Assembly: GCA_964016885.1 (NCBI GenBank)
Contig: OZ024742.1
Span: 6,696,001 to 6,760,000, forward strand
Source: Eledone cirrhosa
Taxonomy: Eukaryota
Reading direction: 5' to 3'
Length of the DNA: 64,000 nt
The position numbers were made by a program, and so were the translations under genes. Of this stretch, positions 1,265 through 19,723 are shown piece by piece; within the stretch, counting starts at the first letter, position 1; each line of letters begins with the position of its first letter. The notes beneath the pieces were generated by a model. The model ran no database searches. It saw only the letters and a list, made by a program, of their open reading frames with translations, and was not told where the DNA came from.

Positions 1265-4200
1265 CAAATACATATATATACAGACTTATATATACACAGT
1301 CATATACATATATATACAGACATATACATATATACACATACATATATATAAACCAGACATATACATATACATACATATACATATATACAGACATATACAT
1401 ATATATATACATACATATACATATATACACAGACATATACATACATACACAGACATATACATATATACACAGATATATACATACATACACAGACATATAC
1501 ATATATACACAGGCATATACATACACACACAGACATATACATATATACACAGACATATACATACACAGACATATACATATATACACAGACATATACATAT
1601 ATACACATATATATACATACATACACACACATATACATATATACACAGACATATACATATATACACAGACATATACATATATACACAGACATATACATAT
1701 ATACACATACATATACATACACAGACATATACATATATACACAGACATATACATATATACACATACATATACATACATACACACACATATACATACATAC
1801 ACACACATATACATATATACACAGACATATACATATATACAGACATATACATATATACACAGACATATACATACACACACAGACATATACATATATACAC
1901 AGACATATACACACACACACAGACATATACATACACACACAGACACATACACACACAGACATATACATACATACACAGACATATACATACACAGACATAT
2001 ACATACATACACAGACATATACATACATACACACACATATACATATATACACAGACATATACATACATACACAGACATATACATACATACATAGACATAT
2101 ACATACACACACAGACATATACATACACAGATACACTCACACACATATACATACACACTGAGACATATACATATATACACAGACATATACACACACACAC
2201 AGACATATACATATATATACAGACATACATACATACATACATACACAGACATATACATACACACACAGACATATACATACACACACAGACATATACATAC
2301 ACACACAGACATATACATACGTACACACACATATACATATATACACAGCCATATACATACATACACACACATATACATATATACACAGCCATATACATAC
2401 ATACACAGACATATACATACACAGACATATACATACATACACACACATACATAAACAGACATATATACATACACAGACATATACACACACACACAGACAT
2501 ATACATACATACACAGACATATACATATATACACAGACATATACATACACAGACTTATACATACATACGCTGACATATACATACATACACACACATACAT
2601 ATACATACACAGACATATACATACACACACAGACATATACATATATACATAGACATATACATACACACACAGACATATACATCCACACACAGACATATAC
2701 ATATATACACATACATATACATACATACACACACATATACATATATACACAGACATATACATGTATACAGACATATACATATATACACACACATATACAT
2801 ATATACACAGATATATACATATATACACAGACATATACACACAGACATATACATATATACACAGACATATACATATATACACAGACATATACATACATAC
2901 ACACACATATACATATATACACAGACATATACATACATACACAGACATATACATACATACACAGACATATACATACATACACAGACATATACATATATAC
3001 ACAGACATATACACACACACACAGACATATACATACACACACAGACATATACATACACAGACATTTACATACATACACAGACATATACATATATACACAG
3101 ACATATACATACATACACAGAGATATACATATATACACAGACATATACATATATACACATACACAGACATACATACCCAGACATATACATACATACACAG
3201 ACATATACATATATACACATACATATACATACATACACACACATATACATACATACACAGACATATACACACATGCACAGACACATACATATATACACTG
3301 ACATATACACACACAGACATATACACACATGCACAGACACATACATATATACACTGACATATACACACACAGACATATACATACACACGCAGTCATATAC
3401 ATACACACACAGACATATACATATATACACAGACATATACATATATACACAGATATATACATACAGACACATACATATACATACACACACATACATATAC
3501 ATATATACACATACATATACATACACAGACATATACATACAGACACAGACATATACATATATACACACAGACATATACATATATACACAGATATATACAT
3601 ACATACACATACATATACATACACACACATACATATACATACACAGACATATACATACACACACAGACATATACATACACACACATACATATACATACAC
3701 AGATACACTCACACACATATACATACACACTGAGACATATACATATATACACAGACATATACACACACACAGACATATACATATATATACAGACATACAT
3801 ACATACATACACAGACATATACATACACACACAGACATATACATACACACACAGACATATGCATACACACAGAGACATATACATACACACACAGACATAT
3901 ACATACATACACACACATATACATATATACACAGCCATATACATACATACACAGACATATACATATATACACAGACATATACATACACACACAGACATAT
4001 ACATCGACACACAGACATATACATACATACACAGACATATACATACATACACAGACATATACATACACACACAGACATATACATCCACACACAGACATAT
4101 ACATACATACACAGGCATATACATACACACACAGACATATACATACACAGACATATACGTACATACACATACATATACATATATACACAGACATATACAT

Positions 4201-7200
4201 ACATACACATACATATACATATATACACAGACATATACATACACAGACATATAAATACACAGACATATACATACACACACATACATACACAGACATATAC
4301 ATACACACACAGACATATACATATATACACAGACATATACATATATACACAGACATATACATACATACATATATACACAGACATATACATACATACATAT
4401 ATACACAGACATATACATACATACATACATACACAGATATATACATACACTGACATATACATACACACACATACATATACATACACATACATATACATAC
4501 ATACACAGACATATACATACACATACATATACATACATACACAGACATATACATACACATACATATACATACACAGACATATACATACACAGACATATAC
4601 ATATATACACAGACATATACATACACACACAGACATATACATACACAGACATATACATACACACACAGACATATACATATATACACAGACATATACATAT
4701 ATACACAGACATATACATACATACACACACATATACATACACTGACATATACATACACACACATACATATACATACACATACATATACATACATACACAG
4801 ACATATACATATATACACAGACATATACATACATACACAGACATATACAAACATACATATATACACAGGCATATACATACATACATATATACACAGACAT
4901 ATACATACATACATACACAGACATATACATACACTGACATATACATACACACACATACATATACATACACATACATATACATACATACACAGACATATAC
5001 ATACACATACATATACATACATACACAGACATATACATACACGTACATATACATACATACACAGACATATACATACACAGACATATACATATATACACAG
5101 ACATATACATACACAGACATATACATACATACACAGCCATATACAATATACATACATACACAGACATATACATACACACATACATATACATACATAGTCA
5201 TATACATACATACACAGACATATACATACACAGACATATACATACAGACACATACATATACATACATACACAGACATATACATACACACACATACATATA
5301 CATACACACACATATACATACATATATATACAGACATATATATACACAGACATATACATATATATACATACATACATACATACACAGACATATACATATA
5401 TACACAGACATATACATATATACACAGACATATACATATATACACAGACATATACATACATACACAGACATATACATATATACACAGACATACACATACA
5501 CACAGACATATACATATATACACAGACACATACATGCATACACATACATACACAGACATATACATACATAGACAGACATATACATATATACACAGACCTA
5601 TACATACACACACAGACATATACATATATACACAGACCTATACATACATACACAGACATATACATACACACACAGACATATACATACACACACAGACATA
5701 TACATACACACAGAGACATATACACACACACACAGACATATACATATATACACAGACATATACATACACAGACATATACATACATACACAGGCCTATACA
5801 TACATACACAGACATATACATATATACACAGACATATACATATATACACAGACATATACATACATACACAGACATATACATATATACACAGACATACACA
5901 TACACACAGACATATACATATATACACAGACACATACATGCATACACATACATACACAGACATATACATACATAGACAGACATATATATATATACACAGA
6001 CCTATACATACACACACAGACATATACATATATACACAGACCTATACATACATACACAGACATATACATACACACACAGACATATACATATATACACAGA
6101 CATATACATATATACACAGACATATACATATACATACAGACATATACATACACACACAGACATATACATACACACACAGACATATACATACACACACAGA
6201 CATATACATATATACACAGACATATACTTATATACACAGACATATACATATATACACAGACATATACATACATACACAGACATATACATACATACACAGA
6301 CATATACATACATACACAGACATATACATATATACACAGACATATATATACATACACAGACATATACATATATACACAGACATATACATACATACACAGA
6401 CATATACATACATACACAGACATATACCTTACATACACAGACATATACATACATACACATACATACACAGACATATACATATATACACAGACATATACAT
6501 ACATACACAGACATATACATACACACACAGACATATACTTACATACACAGACACCCTGATTACACCTTCAGATTTATGCCAGTGATTATCATGGCACTGG
6601 GGTATGTTAGTAACTGCCTCAATACAAATCTTGAGAAGCTGGGCTTCACAGGAACAGAAAGAACATAACTAGTTAGGAAATTACAAGTATAATCCATTAA
6701 TGAACAGTAAAAATATGTAAAACATTCCAGAAATGTTGCAAATAACTGCATATACACATGTACAGATACAAAGCATATACACATGCACACATACAACTCA
6801 AAACATACACATCCACACATACAATAACATCCATATCTACACATGCATGCGTACATACATATCTACCTAGTTGATGTTGTGTAAATTCCAATGAGAGAGT
6901 CTTGTGTCTATGTTAGAAACTGACTCTCTATTGGCAAAACTTTGTGAAATTATAAAACCAGAAGAACATACACAGACATATACATACATACACAGACATA
7001 TACACACATACACAGACACATACATACACAGACATATACATATATACACAGACATATAGACATACAGACATATACAGACACATACAGGCATATATATATA
7101 TATACACAGACATATACATACACACACAGACATATACATACATACACAGACATATACATACACACACATACATATACATACACAGACATATACATACACA

Positions 7201-9414: not shown

Positions 9415-9774
9415 AAAATGGGGAGAAATCTGATGATGTGTGTGTGTTAAGGTTTGTAACGTATGCACGTCCACAATTTCAAACGGATTCTATTCAAAGT
9501 CGGGACAATTATTGCTTTTGGTCAGGAAATCCATCCACAATAAGGGCAAAAATTGATCATGATCATTCCCCCTCTCTATAATTTAACTGCTTTACTCTCT
9601 CTGTCGCTCTTCACTCCCTATATGACAACACTGCATTAGAGCGTTCCGTATTGAGCGTTCCATATTGAGCGTTCCGTATTGACATACGGCTTATGTGGGG
9701 CATTTTCAATCGGCTTATTGCAAATAACAACCCGCAAAATAACACTTCATATAACAGATTAATGCTATAGACAT

Positions 9775-11040
9775 ATGAATCGGAATGTAACCCGTGAACT
9801 TTTTCCTGGGCAAAATTATTCGAACAGACATGACCTCATTGCCACAGTGTTCAGACTGAAACTGGCTAAAGTCATGGCTTTAATCAAAAAGGGTCAGGTA
9901 TTTGGGGCTGTAAAATGTGACATGTTCACCGTCGAATGGCAAAATCGAGGGCTGCTACATGCTCACATTTTGATTTGGTTAACTGATAAAATCAATTCAA
10001 ATGCCATAGACAGCTTCATTTCGGCTGAAATCCCTAACCCAGCAACTGACCAGGAATTACATGACATCGTCAAAGCTAACATGGTCCGTGTGCGTCGGGT
10101 CCTAATGAGCATCACACGTATCTGAAAGGGAGACCGTGCAGTAAGGGATACCCCCAAAAATGTGTTGACCACACTCAGACTCGTGGCGACGGGTACCCCC
10201 TGTACAGGCGGAGACGGTCCGAGAACGGTGACTTCACCACAACAGTAAAGGGAGGTCAAGTCGACAATAGATGGGTGGTCTCTTACTGCCCTCTTCTCTT
10301 GAAGATGTCCAACGCCCACATCAACGTTGAGTTTTGATAAAATACATATGCAAATATGTAAATAAGGGCTCTGATGCCGCAATGTTCGCATTTCAAGCTA
10401 AAAATAGCAGGGACGAGGTCACAGAATACCTGGCGGGGCGGTACATCAGTAGCAATGAAGCTTTTTGGCACCTATTTGGTTTACCCCTACACCAACGGCA
10501 CCCCGCCATCGTATAGCTTGCGGTACATTTGGAAAATGGGCAAAGGGTTTACTTTACGGACCAAACCCCACCAAGTTGGCCGCCGATCCGAAAGAGAACA
10601 CTCTGGCGGGTTTCTTCAAACTTTACCAGTTCGATACATTTACGCAAACAATTGTGTACCCCCAGGTTCCATCCTACTTTATATGGTCGAAAAACACTTG
10701 GGTGCGAAGAAAGTCATGTCAGGCTGTTGAAAGATATCCTGGTGTAAAATTTGACAGCTGTCTTGTAAGGGTTTACACTGTGCCCCCAAGTCAGCACGAG
10801 TGCTTTCTTCATCTCCGCCTTCTTCTGCATGAAGTTGTAGGCCGACAATTTTTTCAGGACATCAAAACTGTTGATGGAGAAATATGTGATACGTACCGGG
10901 AAGCCTGCTTTTGCGAGGTCTTTTGGAAGATGATTCGCAATGGGATTCCACTTTAGCAGAGGGTGCTTTGTTGAAATCACCTAAAGGTCTACGGAAACTC
11001 TTTGCCATTTTGCTTCAAAAGTGTGAATTGGGTGATCCAC
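9775..11040 (+). pseudogene. Decayed Helitron RepHel fragment (HUH Rep domain and downstream region)
   Basis: VEWQNRGLLHAHILIWL (HUH motif 2), IKYICKYVNKGSD (YxxKY motif 3), RYISSNEAFW, LRLLL..V.G..F.DIKTVDG, split over several frames with stops. Confidence 0.9.
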
Positions 11041-12457: not shown

Positions 12458-13340
12458 TCCTGAAAAGTTCTCTCTGACCATCATTGACTCTCAAAAGTTC
12501 TCTCTGACCATCATTGGCCCTCAAAAGTTCTCTCTGACCATCATTGGCCCTCAAAAGTTCTCTCTGACCATCATTGGCCCTCAAAAGTTCTCTCTGACCA
12601 TCACTGGCCCTGAATAGTTCTCTCTGACCATCATTGGCCCTGAATAGTTCTCTCTGATCATCATTGGCCCTGAATAGTTCTCTCTGACCATCATTGGCCC
12701 TCAAAAGTTCTCTCTGACCATCATTGGCCCTCAAAAGTTCTCTCTGACCATCACAGGCCCTCAAAAGTTCTCTCTGACCATCACTGGCCCTGAATAGTTC
12801 TCTCTGACCATCATTGGCTCTCAAAAGTTCTCTCTGACCATCACTGGCCCTCAAAAGTTCTCTCTGACCATCACTGGCCCTCAAAAGTTCTCTGACCATT
12901 ACTGGCCCTGAATAGTTCTCTCTGACCATCATTGGCCCTCAAAAGTTCTCTCTGACCATCACTGGCCCTCAAAAGTTCTCTCTGACCATCACTGGCCCTG
13001 AATAGTTCTCTCTGACCATCATTGGCCCTCAAAAGTTCTCTCTGACCATCATTGGCCCTCAAATGTTCTCTCTGACCATCATTGGCCGTCAAAAGTTCTC
13101 TCTGACCATCATTGGCCCTCAAAAGTTCTCTCTGACCATCACTGGCCTTGAATAGTTCTCTCTGGCCATCACTGGCCCTCAATAGTTCTCTCTGACCATC
13201 ACTGGCCCTCAAAAGTTCTCTCTGACCATCATTGGCCCTCAAAAGTTCTCTCTGACCATCACTGGCCCTCAAAAGTTCTCTCTGACCATCACTGGCCCTC
13301 AAAAGTTCTCTCTGACCATCACTGGCCCTCAATAGTTCTC
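12458..13340. repeat. 30-bp minisatellite CTCAAAAGTTCTCTCTGACCATCA(T/C)TGGCC, about 29 copies
   Basis: Exact 30-bp period, one 2-bp deletion near 12890, degenerate copies to about 13500. Confidence 0.95.
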
Positions 13341-13734
13341 TCTGACCATCACTGGCCCTCAGTAACCGTCACTGCATTTCACTGGCCCTCAAAACTTCTC
13401 GTTTGTCCTCACTAGTTCACATCGGCTCTTAAAACTTTCTTACTCACTCTCATTGGACCCCAAAAGCTCTCACTGACCATCACTGGTCCTCAGTACCCCT
13501 TACAGATCATTCGAAATGATTGAGTGTGATATGGTTGATGTTCCGCTTAAAGAGTTGCACGTTATCTCCTGTAGAAATGTTGTAAGGAACGAGAAGTAGT
13601 GTTTTATAACTATAAAGAACTGTGCATCTCCTGCTGTATTTTATAACTATATGCAATTGTGCATCTGCAACAGAGGTTTTATAAACCGAGGTATATAAGC
13701 TGCAATTTATTCTTGTCTCAGTTGTGAATGAGTA

Positions 13735-14412: not shown

Positions 14413-14462
<50 letters not shown>

Positions 14463-14980
14463 ATATTTGGGGAGGGTCATATTTGCGTAATATTGCCAGA
14501 ATTAATAACAGAACACACTCACTGTTTGGTTGGTTTTCGCTTCTCGCTGTCTTTTATATATATATATCTGCGATCTAACTTACTCGGTCCTCAATGTTGC
14601 CATTGACTGACCGGCGGTCAAAAATAATACAGATACAATATAGACACAAACACATATATATAGTTTACATAATTTACATAAATCTTTCGTTGCACATCTG
14701 CAACATCGTCAGTGGTGTTATATTCATTGTTCCTCCTGTTGTGTTGTATGTCTACGCCATTTTTTTTTTTTTTTGTTCAGTCTGTCTATATATTTATTTA
14801 TTTATTTGCTTGTTTGTTTATCTTATTTTATTTTGTCTTCTTTGCGCATGCGTTTGCGTGTGTGTATAGTGTGATGTGTGACTAGTGTGTATAGTGTTGT
14901 GTCTGCTGGGTGACTAGTGTGTGTTTATGTGCTTGTGTATGTATTTATTTATCTTATTTTATTTAATTTTATTTACTTAT

Positions 14981-15856
14981 TTATACTTCTCTTAGGTCAG
15001 TGTTGTTTGTTTGGGTGTTGTTGTTGTTCCACTCATTCTTTCTGTTTAGCTTTGGTCTTCTAATTTCTATTTCACTGGCCTCTCTGATTTGCCTATCTGC
15101 TGGGTCATTCCTATGTTTAGATATTATTCTAATTTCTATGTTGTCTATGTTACCGTCATGTTGTTGTCTAGCATGTTCGTATAGTACTGACCCGTTTTTT
15201 CGTCCTTTTAGTTCCCCCCAGTGTTGGTCTATCCTTTCACCTATGCTACGAGCTGTCTCACCTATGTATGTTGTTGTCATGTTTCTGCAAGTACCCTCTG
15301 TACATCTTATGCTATAGACTACGTTTCTAGTTTTACAGTTTATCCGGGGGTTCACCTTACAAATGATACATTTCCTATTGGTACAGTGGGTTTTCTTAAA
15401 AGGGTAGGTTTTGCTGATCAGGGATTTTATGGTGGTTCCTGGCTTTTCTACCACCTTTATTTTTAAGTGGGTCTTTCTCAGGGCCTTTCTACACTGGTTA
15501 GCTAATTTCCCTCCAGGGGTGGCGTCCACAAACATGACAATCTGATATCTCTGGTTGTCGTACCATGATGTGGCCTTCCCTATCTTATGTCTAGCCCTAT
15601 CTAAGCTATTCCATGATTTGCTCCTGTATAGTGGGCAAATTCCTTTCATGTCCAGTTCTATGAGGGTCTTATACTTTTCCATGGCTCCTTCGTATACTCT
15701 GACTCTGTCTCTTTGGTTGTAGCCAGAGAACTGCATGCGGTTGATGAAGTGTTGGATGTGTCCTTCCATTTCTGTTGGGTCGCACATGCTGGACACATTC
15801 TTCATCACTCGTACCAAATCTGCGATCAGAATATTAAACTTAACACTACTGGACAT
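14981..15856 (-). CDS. PLE ORF fragment (RT thumb end, Cys-rich linker, GIY-YIG endonuclease), left arm
   Basis: VVYSIRC...YIGETARSIGERIDQH...REASEI...LN: GIY-YIG motif with conserved R, H, E, N; no RT catalytic core. Confidence 0.85.
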   Translation of the reverse strand: MSSSVKFNILIADLVRVMKNVSSMCDPTEMEGHIQHFINRMQFSGYNQRDRVRVYEGAMEKYKTLIELDMKGICPLYRSKSWNSLDRARHKIGKATSWYDNQRYQIVMFVDATPGGKLANQCRKALRKTHLKIKVVEKPGTTIKSLISKTYPFKKTHCTNRKCIICKVNPRINCKTRNVVYSIRCTEGTCRNMTTTYIGETARSIGERIDQHWGELKGRKNGSVLYEHARQQHDGNIDNIEIRIISKHRNDPADRQIREASEIEIRRPKLNRKNEWNNNNTQTNNTDLREV

Positions 15857-16755
15857 TGCTGATACTCAAAAACTCAGCAATGTCCAGTAGTGCTAAGTTT
15901 AATATTCTGATCGCAGATTTGGTAAGAGTGATGAAGAATGTGTCCAGCATGTGCGACCCAACAGAAATGGAAGGACACATCCAACACTTCATCAACCGCA
16001 TGCAGTTCTCTGGCTACAACCAAAGAGACAGAGTCAGAGTATACGAAGGAGCCATGGAAAAGTATAAGACCCTCATAGAACTGGACATGAAAGGAATTTG
16101 CCCACTATACAGGAGCAAATCATGGAATAGCTTAGATAGGGCTAGACATAAGATAGGGAAGGCCACATCATGGTACGACAACCAGAGATATCAGAGTGTC
16201 ATGTTTGTGGACGCCACCCCTGGAGGGAAATTAGCTAACCAGTGTAGAAAGGCCCTGAGAAAGACCCACTTAAAAATAAAGGTGGTAGAAAAGCCAGGAA
16301 CCACCATAAAATCCCTGATCAGCAAAACCTACCCTTTTAAGAAAACCCACTGTACCAATAGGAAATGTATCATTTGTAAGGTGAACCCCCGGATAAACTG
16401 TAAAACTAGAAACGTAGTCTATAGCATAAGATGTACAGAGGGTACTTGCAGAAACATGACAACAACATACATAGGTGAGACAGCTCGTAGCATAGGTGAA
16501 AGGATAGACCAACACTGGGGGGAACTAAAAGGACGAAAAAACGGGTCAGTACTATACGAACATGCTAGACAACAACATGACGGTAACATAGACAACATAG
16601 AAATTAGAATAATATCTAAACATAGGAATGACCCAGCAGATAGGCAAATCAGAGAGGCCAGTGAAATAGAAATTAGAAGACCAAAGCTAAACAGAAAGAA
16701 TGAGTGGAACAACAACAACACCCAAACAAACAACACTGACCTAAGAGAAGTATAA
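15856..16755 (+). CDS. PLE ORF fragment (RT thumb end, linker, GIY-YIG endonuclease), right arm
   Basis: Same protein as left arm except V/A and I/S; frame stays open through the palindrome loop (LLILKNSAMS). Confidence 0.85.
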   Translation: MLILKNSAMSSSAKFNILIADLVRVMKNVSSMCDPTEMEGHIQHFINRMQFSGYNQRDRVRVYEGAMEKYKTLIELDMKGICPLYRSKSWNSLDRARHKIGKATSWYDNQRYQSVMFVDATPGGKLANQCRKALRKTHLKIKVVEKPGTTIKSLISKTYPFKKTHCTNRKCIICKVNPRINCKTRNVVYSIRCTEGTCRNMTTTYIGETARSIGERIDQHWGELKGRKNGSVLYEHARQQHDGNIDNIEIRIISKHRNDPADRQIREASEIEIRRPKLNRKNEWNNNNTQTNNTDLREV

Positions 16756-17017
16756 ATAAGTAAATAAAATTAAATAAAATAAGATAAATAAATACATACA
16801 CAAGCACATAAACACACACTAGTCACCCAGCAGACACAACACTATACACACTAGTCACACATCACACTATACACACACGCAAACGCATGCGCAAAGAAGA
16901 CAAAATAAAATAAGATAAACAAACAAGCAAATAAATAAATAGATATATAGACAGACTGAACAAAAAAAAAAAAAATGGCGTAGACATACAACACAACAGG
17001 AGGAACAATGAATATAA

Positions 17018-17060
17018 CACCACTGACGATGTTGCAGATGTGCAACGAAAGATTTATGTA
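17018..17060 (+). ncRNA. Hammerhead-like motif in the PLE 3' repeat (mirror copy at ~14676-14717, minus)
   Basis: CTGACGA(17023)-T-GTTGCA-GATG-TGCAAC-GAAA(17047)-GATT-TA; perfect stem II, weak stem I. Confidence 0.65.
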
Positions 17061-17334
17061 AATTATGTAAACTATATATATGTGTTTGTGTCTATATTGT
17101 ATCTGTATTATTTTTGACCGCCGGTCAGTCAATGGCAACATTGAGGACCGAGTAAGTTAGATCGCAGATATATATATATAAAAGACAGCGAGAAGCGAAA
17201 ACCAACCAAACAGTGAGTGTGTTCTGTTATTAATTCTGGCAATATTACGCAAATATGACCCTCCCCAAATATAACAATATCTGTTTCGACACACGATTTC
17301 ATATAAAAAACCTCGCAAAACTAATTCATCGCCG

Positions 17335-17384
<50 letters not shown>

Positions 17385-17392
<8 letters not shown>

Positions 17393-17948
17393 GTACATAC
17401 ATATATGTATACAGACGTACTGTAGTATGTATATATATATACATACCTGCACACATATATATATGTACGTATGGATTCACCGAACATTTATTATAATGCT
17501 CGGTGTGTTTGTAAACAAACATCCCGTATTAAGCCGTAGTGTCTAGCAACCATCGTTGCTCGTTTGTTCAACACTGACAAAGGAACGTTGTACTAGTTTC
17601 AAGCTTATTATCTATCGTCAGCAACGTAAACCTTCCTGCCAGATTGTTGAACGTATATACTTACCTTATGCATATTAACGGCTGAGTAGCCCAATTTGCA
17701 TATCGAGTGGGTTAATCGGCCGGGTAAAACGATAAACGATAAACGGAGAAAATGAAACGAAATTTCATTTCCCACTCTTAGTACGGCTGTTACTTACGGT
17801 TTAATACGGGATGTTTGTTTACAAACACAGCGAGCATTATAATAAATGTTCGGTGAATCCATACGTACTCATATATATGTGTGCATGTATGTATATATAT
17901 ATACATACTACTGTACGTCTGTATACATATATGTATGTACGTGTACAT
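17385..17948. repeat. ~150-bp inverted repeat (17385-17538 / 17795-17948) enclosing a hammerhead; pLTR-like remnant
   Basis: GGATTCACCGAACATTTATTATAATGCTCG..CATCCCGTATTAA occurs reverse-complemented about 260 bp downstream. Confidence 0.8.
17585..17627 (-). ncRNA. Minimal hammerhead ribozyme motif
   Basis: Minus strand ACGTTG-CTGACGA-TAGATAATAAGCTT-GAAA-CTAG-TA-CAACGT: perfect 6-bp stem I, palindromic stem III ACTAGT, weak stem II. Confidence 0.75.
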
Positions 17949-18019
17949 ACTTATATTTGGTGGACAGCACGGGCGCGGGTGAGAGCGGTGTGGACGAGAG
18001 AGGGGGGGAGGGTAACCTC

Positions 18020-18600
18020 TGCGGATGAAATGGCTGACTAGGGAAAGGGCCTGGGACTCAAAGTCAGCATCTCGGCTACAGAGGCGGCGGATCCTGAGGA
18101 GTTGGGAGCAGGAAATAGTGTTTAATGTGTGGGTGGGGTGGGAGAAGGTGAAGTCGAGGTAGGAGTGGAAGTCGGTGGGTTTGAAGAAGGCGGAGGTGAT
18201 GAGGGAGTGGTGGGAGGGGTGGAAGGCGACGGAGATGTCTAAGAAGTGGACGTGGGTGGTGGAGATAGAGGTGGTGAAGTAGAGGGAGGGGTGGAAAGAG
18301 CAGAAGAAGGAGAGAAAGGAGTCGAGCTGTTCTCGGGTGAGGGTCGTGGCTCCGATACAGTCGTCGATGTAACGACCGTACAGTTCGGGCGTGGGGCCGG
18401 TGTACTGGGCAAAGATTTGGGCCTCAACATGGCCAACAAAAAGGTTGGCATAGTTTGGACCCATTCTTGTACCCATGGCTACCCCCGTGACCTGTTGGTA
18501 AAACTCACCCGAGAAGGAGAAACGGTTGAGGGTGAGGACCAGCTCGGCGAGGCGAAGGAGGGTGGGGTGGAGGGGATGGGGGAGGGGCGAAGGTCGAGGT
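18020..18600 (-). pseudogene. PLE reverse transcriptase fragment (resembles Neptune-type PLEs)
   Basis: FYQQVTGVAMGTRMGPNYANLF, GRYIDDC, FLDI, FKPTDFHSYL, SQLLRIRRLCS. Confidence 0.88.
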
Positions 18601-18639
18601 AGATATATATATATTAGACATATTACGTGTTAGATTCCC

Positions 18640-19723
18640 GGACTTCCACACGGGAATATACCGCGACGATGGACTGACCTTATCGAACCATAAAAGTGGT
18701 CAAGACCTCTACTGGTTTACTTAGCTTCTACCTTCAATGAGTTAGGACTTAGGATAACAGTAGCTACCAACCTCTCTAGCGTAGATTTCTTAGACATTAA
18801 TTTAGACTTTCGCACACACCTACAGACCCTTCCATAAGCTAAACGAAAAACTCAATTACATTCACAAGGACTCATGCAACCCTCCCACTGATTTTAGAAA
18901 CTTCGTAAATAATATCAGTACTAGAATCTCAAACCTATCCTCTAATATCTTTGACAGGGCGGCACCCTACTATAACACGGCGTTAGCTAACAGCGGCTTC
19001 TCGCAACCTATCACTTACTCTCCCACTAACAACAACAGCAATAAGAAAAGAAAGCGTAACAATAGACAAACTATCTGGTTCGCTCCTCCCTTCTCAGTCA
19101 ACGTTAAAACCTATGTAGGCAAAAGAATTCTAGCCCTCTTAGATAGACACTTTCTCATAGGTCATAAATACCGCTCCATCTTTAACCGACACAAAGTAAA
19201 ACTAGGATACTCCTGCGCTAAGAACATGAAGGCTGACATCACCAACAGCCCTAAGAGCAACACCCCATCAGGGTGCTATTGCCGTAAGCCCAAAGCTTGT
19301 CCCCTTCAACAGCAATGCAACACACCCGCTGTAGTTTATGAAGCTGTGGTCACTTCCAACCGACCAAATCAACCACAGGAGGTCAAATCCTATGTGGGTA
19401 TGGCGGAGGGCCAATTTAAGTAAAGCATCCTGAACCACCAGTCTACCTTTAGGTACCCGGACAGACGTTCATCCACGAAACTCGCGAGCCACGTATGGTC
19501 CCTCAAGGACTCAAGTATAGACTACTCCATTCAATGGAAAGCCATCACTAAGTCCAAGCCATACGCAAGGGCCAATCCGTGGTGTGGACCATGTATTGAT
19601 AAACAAATAAATATTCTAAAGAGATTGCGCAATAGTGATTGCCTAAACATGAGGACTGAATTCTTCACACGTTGTCCACACGTCTGGAAACACCTCTTAC
19701 ATAACTTCAAAGCTCCGGATTGA
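18640..19723 (+). pseudogene. PLE RT C-terminal half plus GIY-YIG, decayed (resembles Naiad-type PLEs)
   Basis: GIYRDDGL at 18653, VDFLDI, IWFAPPFS, KLGYSC, CYCRKPKACPLQQQC, VVY..YVGMAEG.FK*..NH, C..C, LNMRTE...CPH; frameshift near the start and TAA at 19421; ends TGA 19721-19723. Confidence 0.85.

What the first reader, a model, noticed from the sequence alone, without database searches (positions are those of the whole stretch)
14455..17280. 2.8-kb Penelope palindrome whose junction looks like cDNA snap-back priming
Seen: two ~1.4-kb arms differing by about four substitutions and one homopolymer base (counted by eye), joined by an 11-nt loop. The plus-strand PLE frame continues through the loop into the last 7 nt of the left arm (TTG CTG ATA CTC AAA AAC TCA GCA ATG = LLILKNSAM). 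Known: PLE insertions often carry an inverted 5'-truncated copy. Inference: TTGCTGA..TCAGCAA is a native 7-bp micro-hairpin where the nascent cDNA 3' end folded back and primed a copy of itself, so the junction records the mechanism at base resolution. The arm differences argue for a real, recent insertion rather than a read fold-back.
Basis: partly seen in the sequence, partly recalled or inferred. Interest (0 to 1): 0.75.

Follow-up and report, generated by a model that had tools for sequence, protein, structure and literature searches.

The report
Twin-primed Penelope palindrome, not snap-back
This 2.8-kb mirror-image stretch is a young insertion of a common Penelope-like jumping gene; the proposed 7-base hairpin at its centre is not in the element's own sequence, and its sister insertions suggest that the two halves were likely copied separately, one from each end of the chromosome cut, and then likely joined, rather than one copy folding back along itself.

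Summary
The palindrome is in the assembly (1.4-kb arms, 11-nt loop, 4 substitutions, 1 indel), but the 7-bp native hairpin is refuted. The family reads TACCTGA (2,738 exact matches), TAGCTGA (7) and TTGCTGA only here; 4 bp are native, as at 9.5% of element positions.

Of 105 classable head-to-head junctions from 200 sister loci, 101 have one arm with the 3' tail and one without. The tail is on the shorter arm in 63, which a fold-back copy of the longer arm cannot give. Most arm ends lie hundreds to thousands of bases apart, joins average 1.6 nt microhomology (null 0.6), and paired arms share private variants (24 against 0.3 expected).

Best reading (0.68): two target-primed cDNAs from fixed RNA start sites, one source, end-joined. 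Snap-back at this locus stays possible (0.2): its tail is on the longer arm, and short fold-backs (about 30-170 nt) occur in the family. Public contigs did not confirm the junction (inconclusive).

The layout is published, with self-priming proposed; my searches found no twin-priming account for Penelope elements. This scan reached the same reading earlier on other DNA, including this genome.

The parts
14425..14458 (.). (TA)n target microsatellite, left
   Evidence: 233 of 237 family 3' ends abut (TA)n
14455..15862 (-). Left arm: 5'-truncated element copy without tail, ending at the common start site ...ACAATAT (reference position 4075)
15859..15862 (.). 4-nt junction microhomology CTGA, the only native part of the proposed 7-bp stem
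15863..15873 (+). 11-nt loop: native element sequence belonging to the right arm
15859..17338 (+). Right arm: 5'-truncated copy with tail, reaching 15 nt further 5' than the left arm
15859..16755 (+). 3' part of the ORF (RT thumb region, Cys linker, GIY-YIG-type endonuclease); no RT core, so non-autonomous
   Evidence: full 1,210-aa ORF in sister copies L080 and L087
16351..16476 (+). CX4CxxC linker motif, then VVY-C-C-YIG endonuclease core
   Evidence: sequence; motif definitions PMC8557442
16756..17280 (+). pLTR region; the next ORF's ATG lies at 17255
17023..17050 (+). Minimal hammerhead-like core CTGACGA, 6-bp stem II, GAAA; mirror copy at 14685-14712
   Evidence: by eye and fold; no Rfam hammerhead match
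17281..17338 (+). Unmirrored 58-nt tail, the start of the next unit's ORF, ending at the second start site ...CGCTAT
17336..17445 (.). (TA)n target microsatellite, right

Best explanation
The palindrome is a young head-to-head insertion of an endonuclease-bearing Penelope-like element in a (TA)n run, likely made by twin priming: both target ends likely primed reverse transcription on RNA from one source, one at the tail start site and one at the site 58 nt inside it, and the two cDNA 3' ends were likely joined through the 4-nt CTGA/TCAG microhomology. Shown: the structure, the fixed 3' ends at TA-like element sequence, one tail per insertion, the tail on either arm, short microhomology or templated patches at joins, and a common source for the two arms. 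Inferred: cutting of both strands, the order of events, use of a single RNA molecule, and host end joining. The near-symmetry here is either the chance extreme of a broad spread or two RTs stopping at about the same RNA end.
For: One tailed and one untailed arm in 101 of 105 classable junctions (3 both tailed, 1 neither): 79 of 82 in set 1 and 22 of 23 in the window's own sub-lineage. Tail on the shorter arm in 63, the longer in 37, equal in 1. Arm offsets are 50 nt or less in only 6 of 101. Four of these six have the tailed arm shorter or equal (L085, L233, L234, L247), so near-perfect palindromes arise without a tailed longer arm. Tailed short arms often stop near the inner start site: under 100 nt past it in 23 of 63, against 2 of 37 untailed short arms, p=6e-4. 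Clean joins show mean microhomology 1.63 against 0.64 null (52 joins), similar whichever arm is tailed (1.69 and 1.57). Arms disagree at 5 of 156 lineage sites against a null mean of 49. Variants private to the two arms of one insertion number 24 against 0.28 expected, many where the short arm is tailed. In vitro, a Poseidon PLE cleaves and extends both strands, starts at two sites that bound the tail, and is predicted to be a dimer (PMC11167929).
Against: This locus has the tail on the longer arm, a 15-nt offset and a 4-nt stem, which is what snap-back would leave; L242 looks the same (29 nt, 4 nt). Small offsets are in modest excess over independent ends (50 nt or less: 6 against 2.5, p=0.04; 5 nt or less: 3 against 0.3, p=0.004, threshold chosen afterwards). 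Short fold-back patches exist (L225, L103, L091). The pile-up 0-30 nt past the inner site (12 cases) came only from set 1, with 0 in set 2. Shared private variants could also come from an unsampled parent copy or from gene conversion. The window's arms share no private variant, so nothing here is locus-specific proof. The junction was not seen in public contigs.
Confidence: 0.68

Rival explanations
1. cDNA snap-back: the tail-primed cDNA folded back on CTGA/TCAG, copied 1.4 kb of itself and jumped to the (TA)n target at ...ACAATAT.
For: The tail is on the longer arm, the loop is native and the microhomology is 4 nt. Joins with 4 nt or more are enriched, 5 against 0.85. Short fold-backs occur at L225 (31 nt, 3-bp stem), L103 and L091 (167 nt, 4-bp stem). 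Self-priming was proposed for PLE palindromic junctions, though on an antisense template (PMC3846280).
Against: The stem is weak and common, and the junction is unique among more than 2,700 copies that cross the site. Snap-back cannot make the 63 of 101 insertions whose short arm carries the tail. The fold-backs seen are short and stop at other places, whereas this arm stops exactly at the canonical start site, having passed other TA-rich stretches of the pLTR.
Confidence: 0.2
2. A self-primed hairpin or palindromic intermediate whose unequal ends are cut out by the element's endonuclease.
For: The tail was ascribed to EN-mediated resolution (PMC8557442 passage). The Poseidon EN cuts its own pLTR junction in vitro.
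Against: A fixed stagger would put the tail always on the same arm, but the split is 63:37. Loops of kilobases are joined by 0-2 nt. Junctions are nearly all unique (repeats only at L120/L121, L110 and L171), so palindromic templates are not being re-copied.
Confidence: 0.06
3. Read fold-back or assembly artefact.
For: No public contig spans the junction or carries the left arm's private allele at 15843. Small opposite-strand joints appear nearby in RAD reads of another individual.
Against: The two flanks differ, only one arm has the tail as in 101 of 105 sisters, and the arms differ by 4 in 1,407 bases, within the range of young sister pairs.
Confidence: 0.06

Closest known systems
EN+ Penelope-like elements with an inverted 5'-truncated copy and one-sided tail (PMC8557442, passages and Introduction; PMC3846280, parts 1-4 of 5)
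   Same: Head-to-head inverted copy, tail at one end, partial tandems, (TA)n targets, palindromes at the inverted junction, Asn-rich ORF stretch in the family.
   Different: The tail is 43-58 nt rather than 30-40. The published proposals were self-priming or EN resolution; here the tail falls on either arm and more often on the shorter.
Poseidon PAc in vitro (PMC11167929, parts 1-2 of 4)
   Same: Two RT start sites bound the tail, both strands are cut and extended, AT-rich targets, a dimer is predicted.
   Different: This family has a Neptune/Nematis-type Cys linker, and its ends match the target by TA microhomology, whereas PAc starts at sites not homologous to the cut DNA. The parts read do not explain head-to-head arms.
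L1 twin priming (Ostertag and Kazazian 2001, seen only as described in PMC10760644 and bioRxiv 2024.12.14.628481, passages)
   Same: Second priming at the target site, two cDNAs joined by microhomology.
   Different: As I recall it, L1's second primer anneals at variable internal sites and gives an inversion with little overlap. Here both starts are fixed and 43-58 nt apart, and the arms duplicate up to kilobases.
Self-annealing fold-back at L1-induced ends (bioRxiv 2024.12.14.628481, passages)
   Same: Small hairpins with about 2-bp microhomology prime inverted duplications, like the short patches in L225, L103 and L091.
   Different: Those duplicate genomic flank and have no fixed far end.

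Membership tests
EN+ Penelope-like element | Single ORF with RT and C-terminal GIY-YIG endonuclease | tested here: met
   1,210-aa ORF in L080 with DKSG, YPS, QNEG, YVDD, then VVY..YIG. RVT_1 E=3.7e-5, below Pfam's cut-off. No Pfam match for the whole ORF or the EN, so the EN rests on motifs.
EN+ Penelope-like element | CCHH motif with two Cys between GIY and YIG | tested here: met
   VVYSIRCTEGTCRNMTTTYIG, followed by His in RIDQH and LYEH.
EN+ Penelope-like element | pLTRs, partial tandems, inverted copy, one-sided tail | tested here: met
EN+ Penelope-like element | Hammerhead motif in the pLTR | tested here: inconclusive
   Minimal core and stem II present; no Rfam match; cleavage untested.
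EN+ Penelope-like element | RT groups with PLE/telomerase RTs in a tree | not tested
   No tree or homologue search was run; no PDB match.
Neptune/Nematis clades | Extra Cys motif between RT and EN | tested here: met
   CTNRKCIIC; which clade was not resolved.
Snap-back self-primed palindrome | Native 7-bp stem at the turn | tested here: not met
   4 bp only
Snap-back self-primed palindrome | Short arm holds nothing the long arm lacks | tested here: inconclusive
   True at this locus; false in 63 of 101 sister insertions.
Twin-primed insertion | Each arm begins at an RT start site on opposite target strands | tested here: met
   Both arm ends match the family's fixed 3' ends. That these are RT start sites is inferred from PMC11167929.
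Twin-primed insertion | Microhomology or small templated patch at the internal join | tested here: met
Twin-primed insertion | Both cDNAs from one RNA molecule | tested here: inconclusive
   A common source is shown at family level; the same molecule is not separable from the same parent locus or from conversion.
Twin-primed insertion | Target-site duplication | not testable with these tools
   Hidden in (TA)n; no empty allele at hand.

The most novel reading that the evidence does not exclude
Penelope-like elements integrate by built-in twin priming: a dimeric RT-endonuclease starts two cDNAs on one RNA at fixed sites 43-58 nt apart, one from each target strand. The lengths reached set whether the product is a solo copy, a copy with an inverted tail, or a kilobase palindrome. 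Near-perfect palindromes such as this one mark both RTs running to the same RNA end, and cDNA snap-back adds only short patches.
Probability: 0.45. Interest if true: 0.7.

Novelty: new member of a known kind. Interest (0 to 1): 0.42.

Why it matters
The papers read call the origin of PLE tandem/inverted structures an open mechanistic question (PMC8557442). The locus alone settles nothing. A hundred sister junctions give rules that the in vitro Poseidon system can test: one tail per insertion, the tail on either arm, both arms from one source, 1-2 nt joins. They argue against snap-back of a sense-templated cDNA as the main route. It also shows that junction microhomology in one palindrome must be checked against sister copies before being read as a mechanism.

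Tried and rejected
Native 7-bp stem: rejected. Descent from the TAGCTGA variant (5-bp stem): unlikely, since it has 7 exact matches and the two closest copies read TACCTGA; the allele within the window's own sub-lineage was not tabulated separately. Arms from two different parent lineages: three of the four differences are private, and the fourth is shared only with 8 older copies outside the sub-lineage, so this is uninformative. Junction hotspot: the junction occurs once. Rfam gave only sub-threshold miRNA-hairpin matches caused by the palindrome. Pfam on the window ORF and PDB on the full ORF gave nothing. The protein atlas gave no result. Reads: three runs of one sample and two RAD runs gave no spanning record; one contig of X2 over 15827-15857 may be a family contig laid on the left arm. 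No tree, homologue search, structure or complex prediction was run. Supplements were not opened; those of PMC11167929 (Fig. S2) and PMC3846280 may bear on the novelty claim.

Full report
Observation. The window holds inverted arms at 14455-15862 and 15874-17280 around an 11-nt loop. They differ by four substitutions and one homopolymer base. The right arm carries a 298-codon frame with a Cys linker and a VVY..YIG endonuclease core. Both ends abut (TA)n, and the right arm runs on for 58 unmirrored bases. The window lies in a 3.0-Gb genome.

The element. Sister copies have a unit of about 4.1 kb in partial tandems, with an intact 1,210-aa ORF in L080 and L087. It shows DKSG, YPS, QNEG, YVDD, CX4CxxC and VVY-C-C-YIG and a sub-threshold RVT_1 match. 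With the pLTR, tail and a minimal hammerhead-like core (no Rfam match), these are the features that PMC8557442 gives for endonuclease-bearing Penelope-like elements of the Neptune/Nematis type. I ran no tree. One 39-mer has 2,537 exact matches. The window belongs to a young sub-lineage marked by a 7-bp deletion, with 82 exact matches and a median 0.25% divergence from the lineage majority.

None of the 29 other copies has TTGCTGA. Exact counts are 2,738 for TACCTGA, 7 for TAGCTGA and 1 for TTGCTGA, the window itself. The native stem is CTGA/TCAG. It folds at -0.9 kcal/mol as DNA, and 9.5% of element positions have a terminal stem this long within a 3-30-nt loop. Microhomology also cannot separate the mechanisms: a cDNA folding on itself and two cDNA ends annealing leave the same letters. 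Arm offset, tail side and arm ancestry can separate them.

Family survey. I fetched 200 stretches. Set 1 had 160: 31 from the best hits, 9, 80 from the first 100 matches and 40 from the first 100. Set 2 had 40 of the 42 unfetched loci. Each was mapped on the natural copy L080. Excluding the window, 124 of 200 held a head-to-head junction, giving 126 distinct junctions; one further junction could not be refined. Twenty-one were dropped because an outer end was unclassable or ran off the stretch. Of the 105 left, 101 have one arm ending at the inner site (...ACAATAT) and one ending 43-58 nt further in the tail; 3 have two tails and 1 has none. The tail is on the shorter arm in 63, the longer in 37, equal in 1 (set 2 alone 11:11). 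A fold-back copy cannot hold sequence that its template lacks, so snap-back is excluded for those 63. In set 1, 233 of 237 outer ends lie within 16 nt of (TA)n.

Offsets. Only 6 of 101 junctions have arms ending within 50 nt of each other, against 2.5 under shuffled pairing (p=0.04). Within 20 nt it is 3 against 1.0 (p=0.07), and within 5 nt 3 against 0.3 (p=0.004, threshold chosen afterwards). Set 1 alone showed no excess. Four of the six have the tailed arm shorter or equal and no stem (L085, L233, L234, L247). Two resemble the window in having the tailed arm longer (L242 with 4 nt, L108 with 1 nt). Tailed short arms stop under 100 nt past the inner site in 23 of 63, untailed short arms in 2 of 37 (p=6e-4). 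The peak just past that site came from set 1 only.

Joins. Among 85 junctions with both arms at least 95% like the reference, 52 are clean, with mean microhomology 1.63 against 0.64 simulated, and 4 nt or more in 5 against 0.85. The other 33 have extra bases. Several are copies of neighbouring arm sequence and some only reflect divergence from the reference. This resembles microhomology-mediated end joining (own knowledge). Short fold-back patches do occur: 31 nt on a 3-bp stem in L225, about 30-45 nt in L103, 167 nt on a 4-bp stem in L091. L200 looks like internal priming at a TA-like site.

Ancestry of arms. In 21 young insertions (window included) the arms disagree at 5 of 156 lineage-marking sites, against a null mean of 49 and a minimum of 24 in 5,000 draws. 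Among 188 young segments, 24 variants are confined to the two arms of one insertion (3 of them in the rearranged L110), against 0.28 expected, and many are in insertions with the tail on the short arm. The arms therefore share a source. One RNA molecule, one unsampled parent or later gene conversion would all fit. The window's own arms share lineage marks but no private variant. Three of their differences are private and one matches 8 older copies.

Mechanism. The likely route is that the endonuclease cuts both strands of (TA)n and each 3' end primes on element RNA at a TA-like site, one at the tail end and one at the inner site. Each cDNA runs until it stops, and the two ends are joined by short microhomology. 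Long overlaps need strand displacement, tandem RNA units or a second RNA from the same locus (inference). PMC11167929 (parts 1-2 of 4) reports for a Poseidon element that both strands are cleaved and extended, that two start sites bound the tail, and that a dimer is predicted. For this locus the tail is on the longer arm with a 15-nt offset, so snap-back remains possible (0.2). Against it, the arm runs 1.4 kb and ends exactly at the canonical site.

Is it genomic? Three runs of one sample hold the flank, but none of their contigs covers 15844-15858 at 99%. Unique contigs there have depth 4-7, and the tool warns that holes prove nothing. RAD reads of another individual show small opposite-strand joints nearby, which may be library fold-backs or other insertions. 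Distinct flanks, a one-sided tail and typical arm divergence favour a real insertion.

Literature. The layout is known (PMC8557442, passages and Introduction). PMC3846280 (parts 1-4 of 5) infers self-priming from palindromes at inverted junctions. Twin priming is the L1 model (PMC10760644 and bioRxiv 2024.12.14.628481, passages; the original was not held). PMC4209133 (passages) describes minimal hammerheads in pLTRs, and bioRxiv 2026.07.22.740005 (passages) had nothing on priming. Searches listed no paper applying twin priming to PLEs; 'Penelope' with 'twin priming' gave three titles on other subjects, seen as listings only. Subscription papers and supplements were not seen. Earlier notes of this scan reached the same reading in this and other genomes. 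I had logged mine before seeing them, and they are not independent evidence.

Verdict. A real-looking, ordinary product of an abundant PLE family. The base-level snap-back story is refuted as stated, and the interest lies in the family-wide rules rather than in this junction.

Noticed in passing
L225 (about 4122-4152), L103 (about 2997-3050), L091 (3165-3331): Short fold-back patches of about 30-170 nt at a cDNA end, on 3-4-bp stems: better snap-back candidates than the window.
   Followed up: partly
L085 4023-4030; L233 5289-5290; L234 1103-1104: Near-perfect palindromes whose arms stop within 0-4 nt of each other with no native stem; both RTs may have run off one RNA end.
   Followed up: partly
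L110 2995-4864; L171 3960-4158: The same junction occurs twice within one insertion (mirrored in L110, direct in L171): re-copying of a finished join.
   Followed up: no
L200 2735-2946: Second arm starts at an internal TA-like site and overlaps the first arm's end, like classical L1 twin priming.
   Followed up: partly
L064, L124, L212, L222, L170: 40-100-nt pieces from elsewhere in the element sit between the two arms (template jumps).
   Followed up: no
L117, L159: Identical 17-nt inverted tail remnants that stop at the alternative tail end.
   Followed up: no
L080 ORF, aa 250-400: 51% asparagine, recalling the Asn-rich inserts of Adineta vaga Penelope ORFs (PMC3846280).
   Followed up: no
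window 17377-17538 and 17795-17956: 162-nt inverted arms around 256 nt, MITE-like, next to the right (TA)n.
   Followed up: no
window 17793-18629 (-), 18806-19723 (+), 9763-10125 (+): Degenerate RT frame (weak RVT_1), a second PLE-like endonuclease fragment seen by eye, and a Helitron_like_N fragment.
   Followed up: partly
window 43733-64000: An 18-nt satellite of at least 20 kb running off the window; 20-nt (1288-6553) and 30-nt (12459-13361) arrays also present.
   Followed up: no
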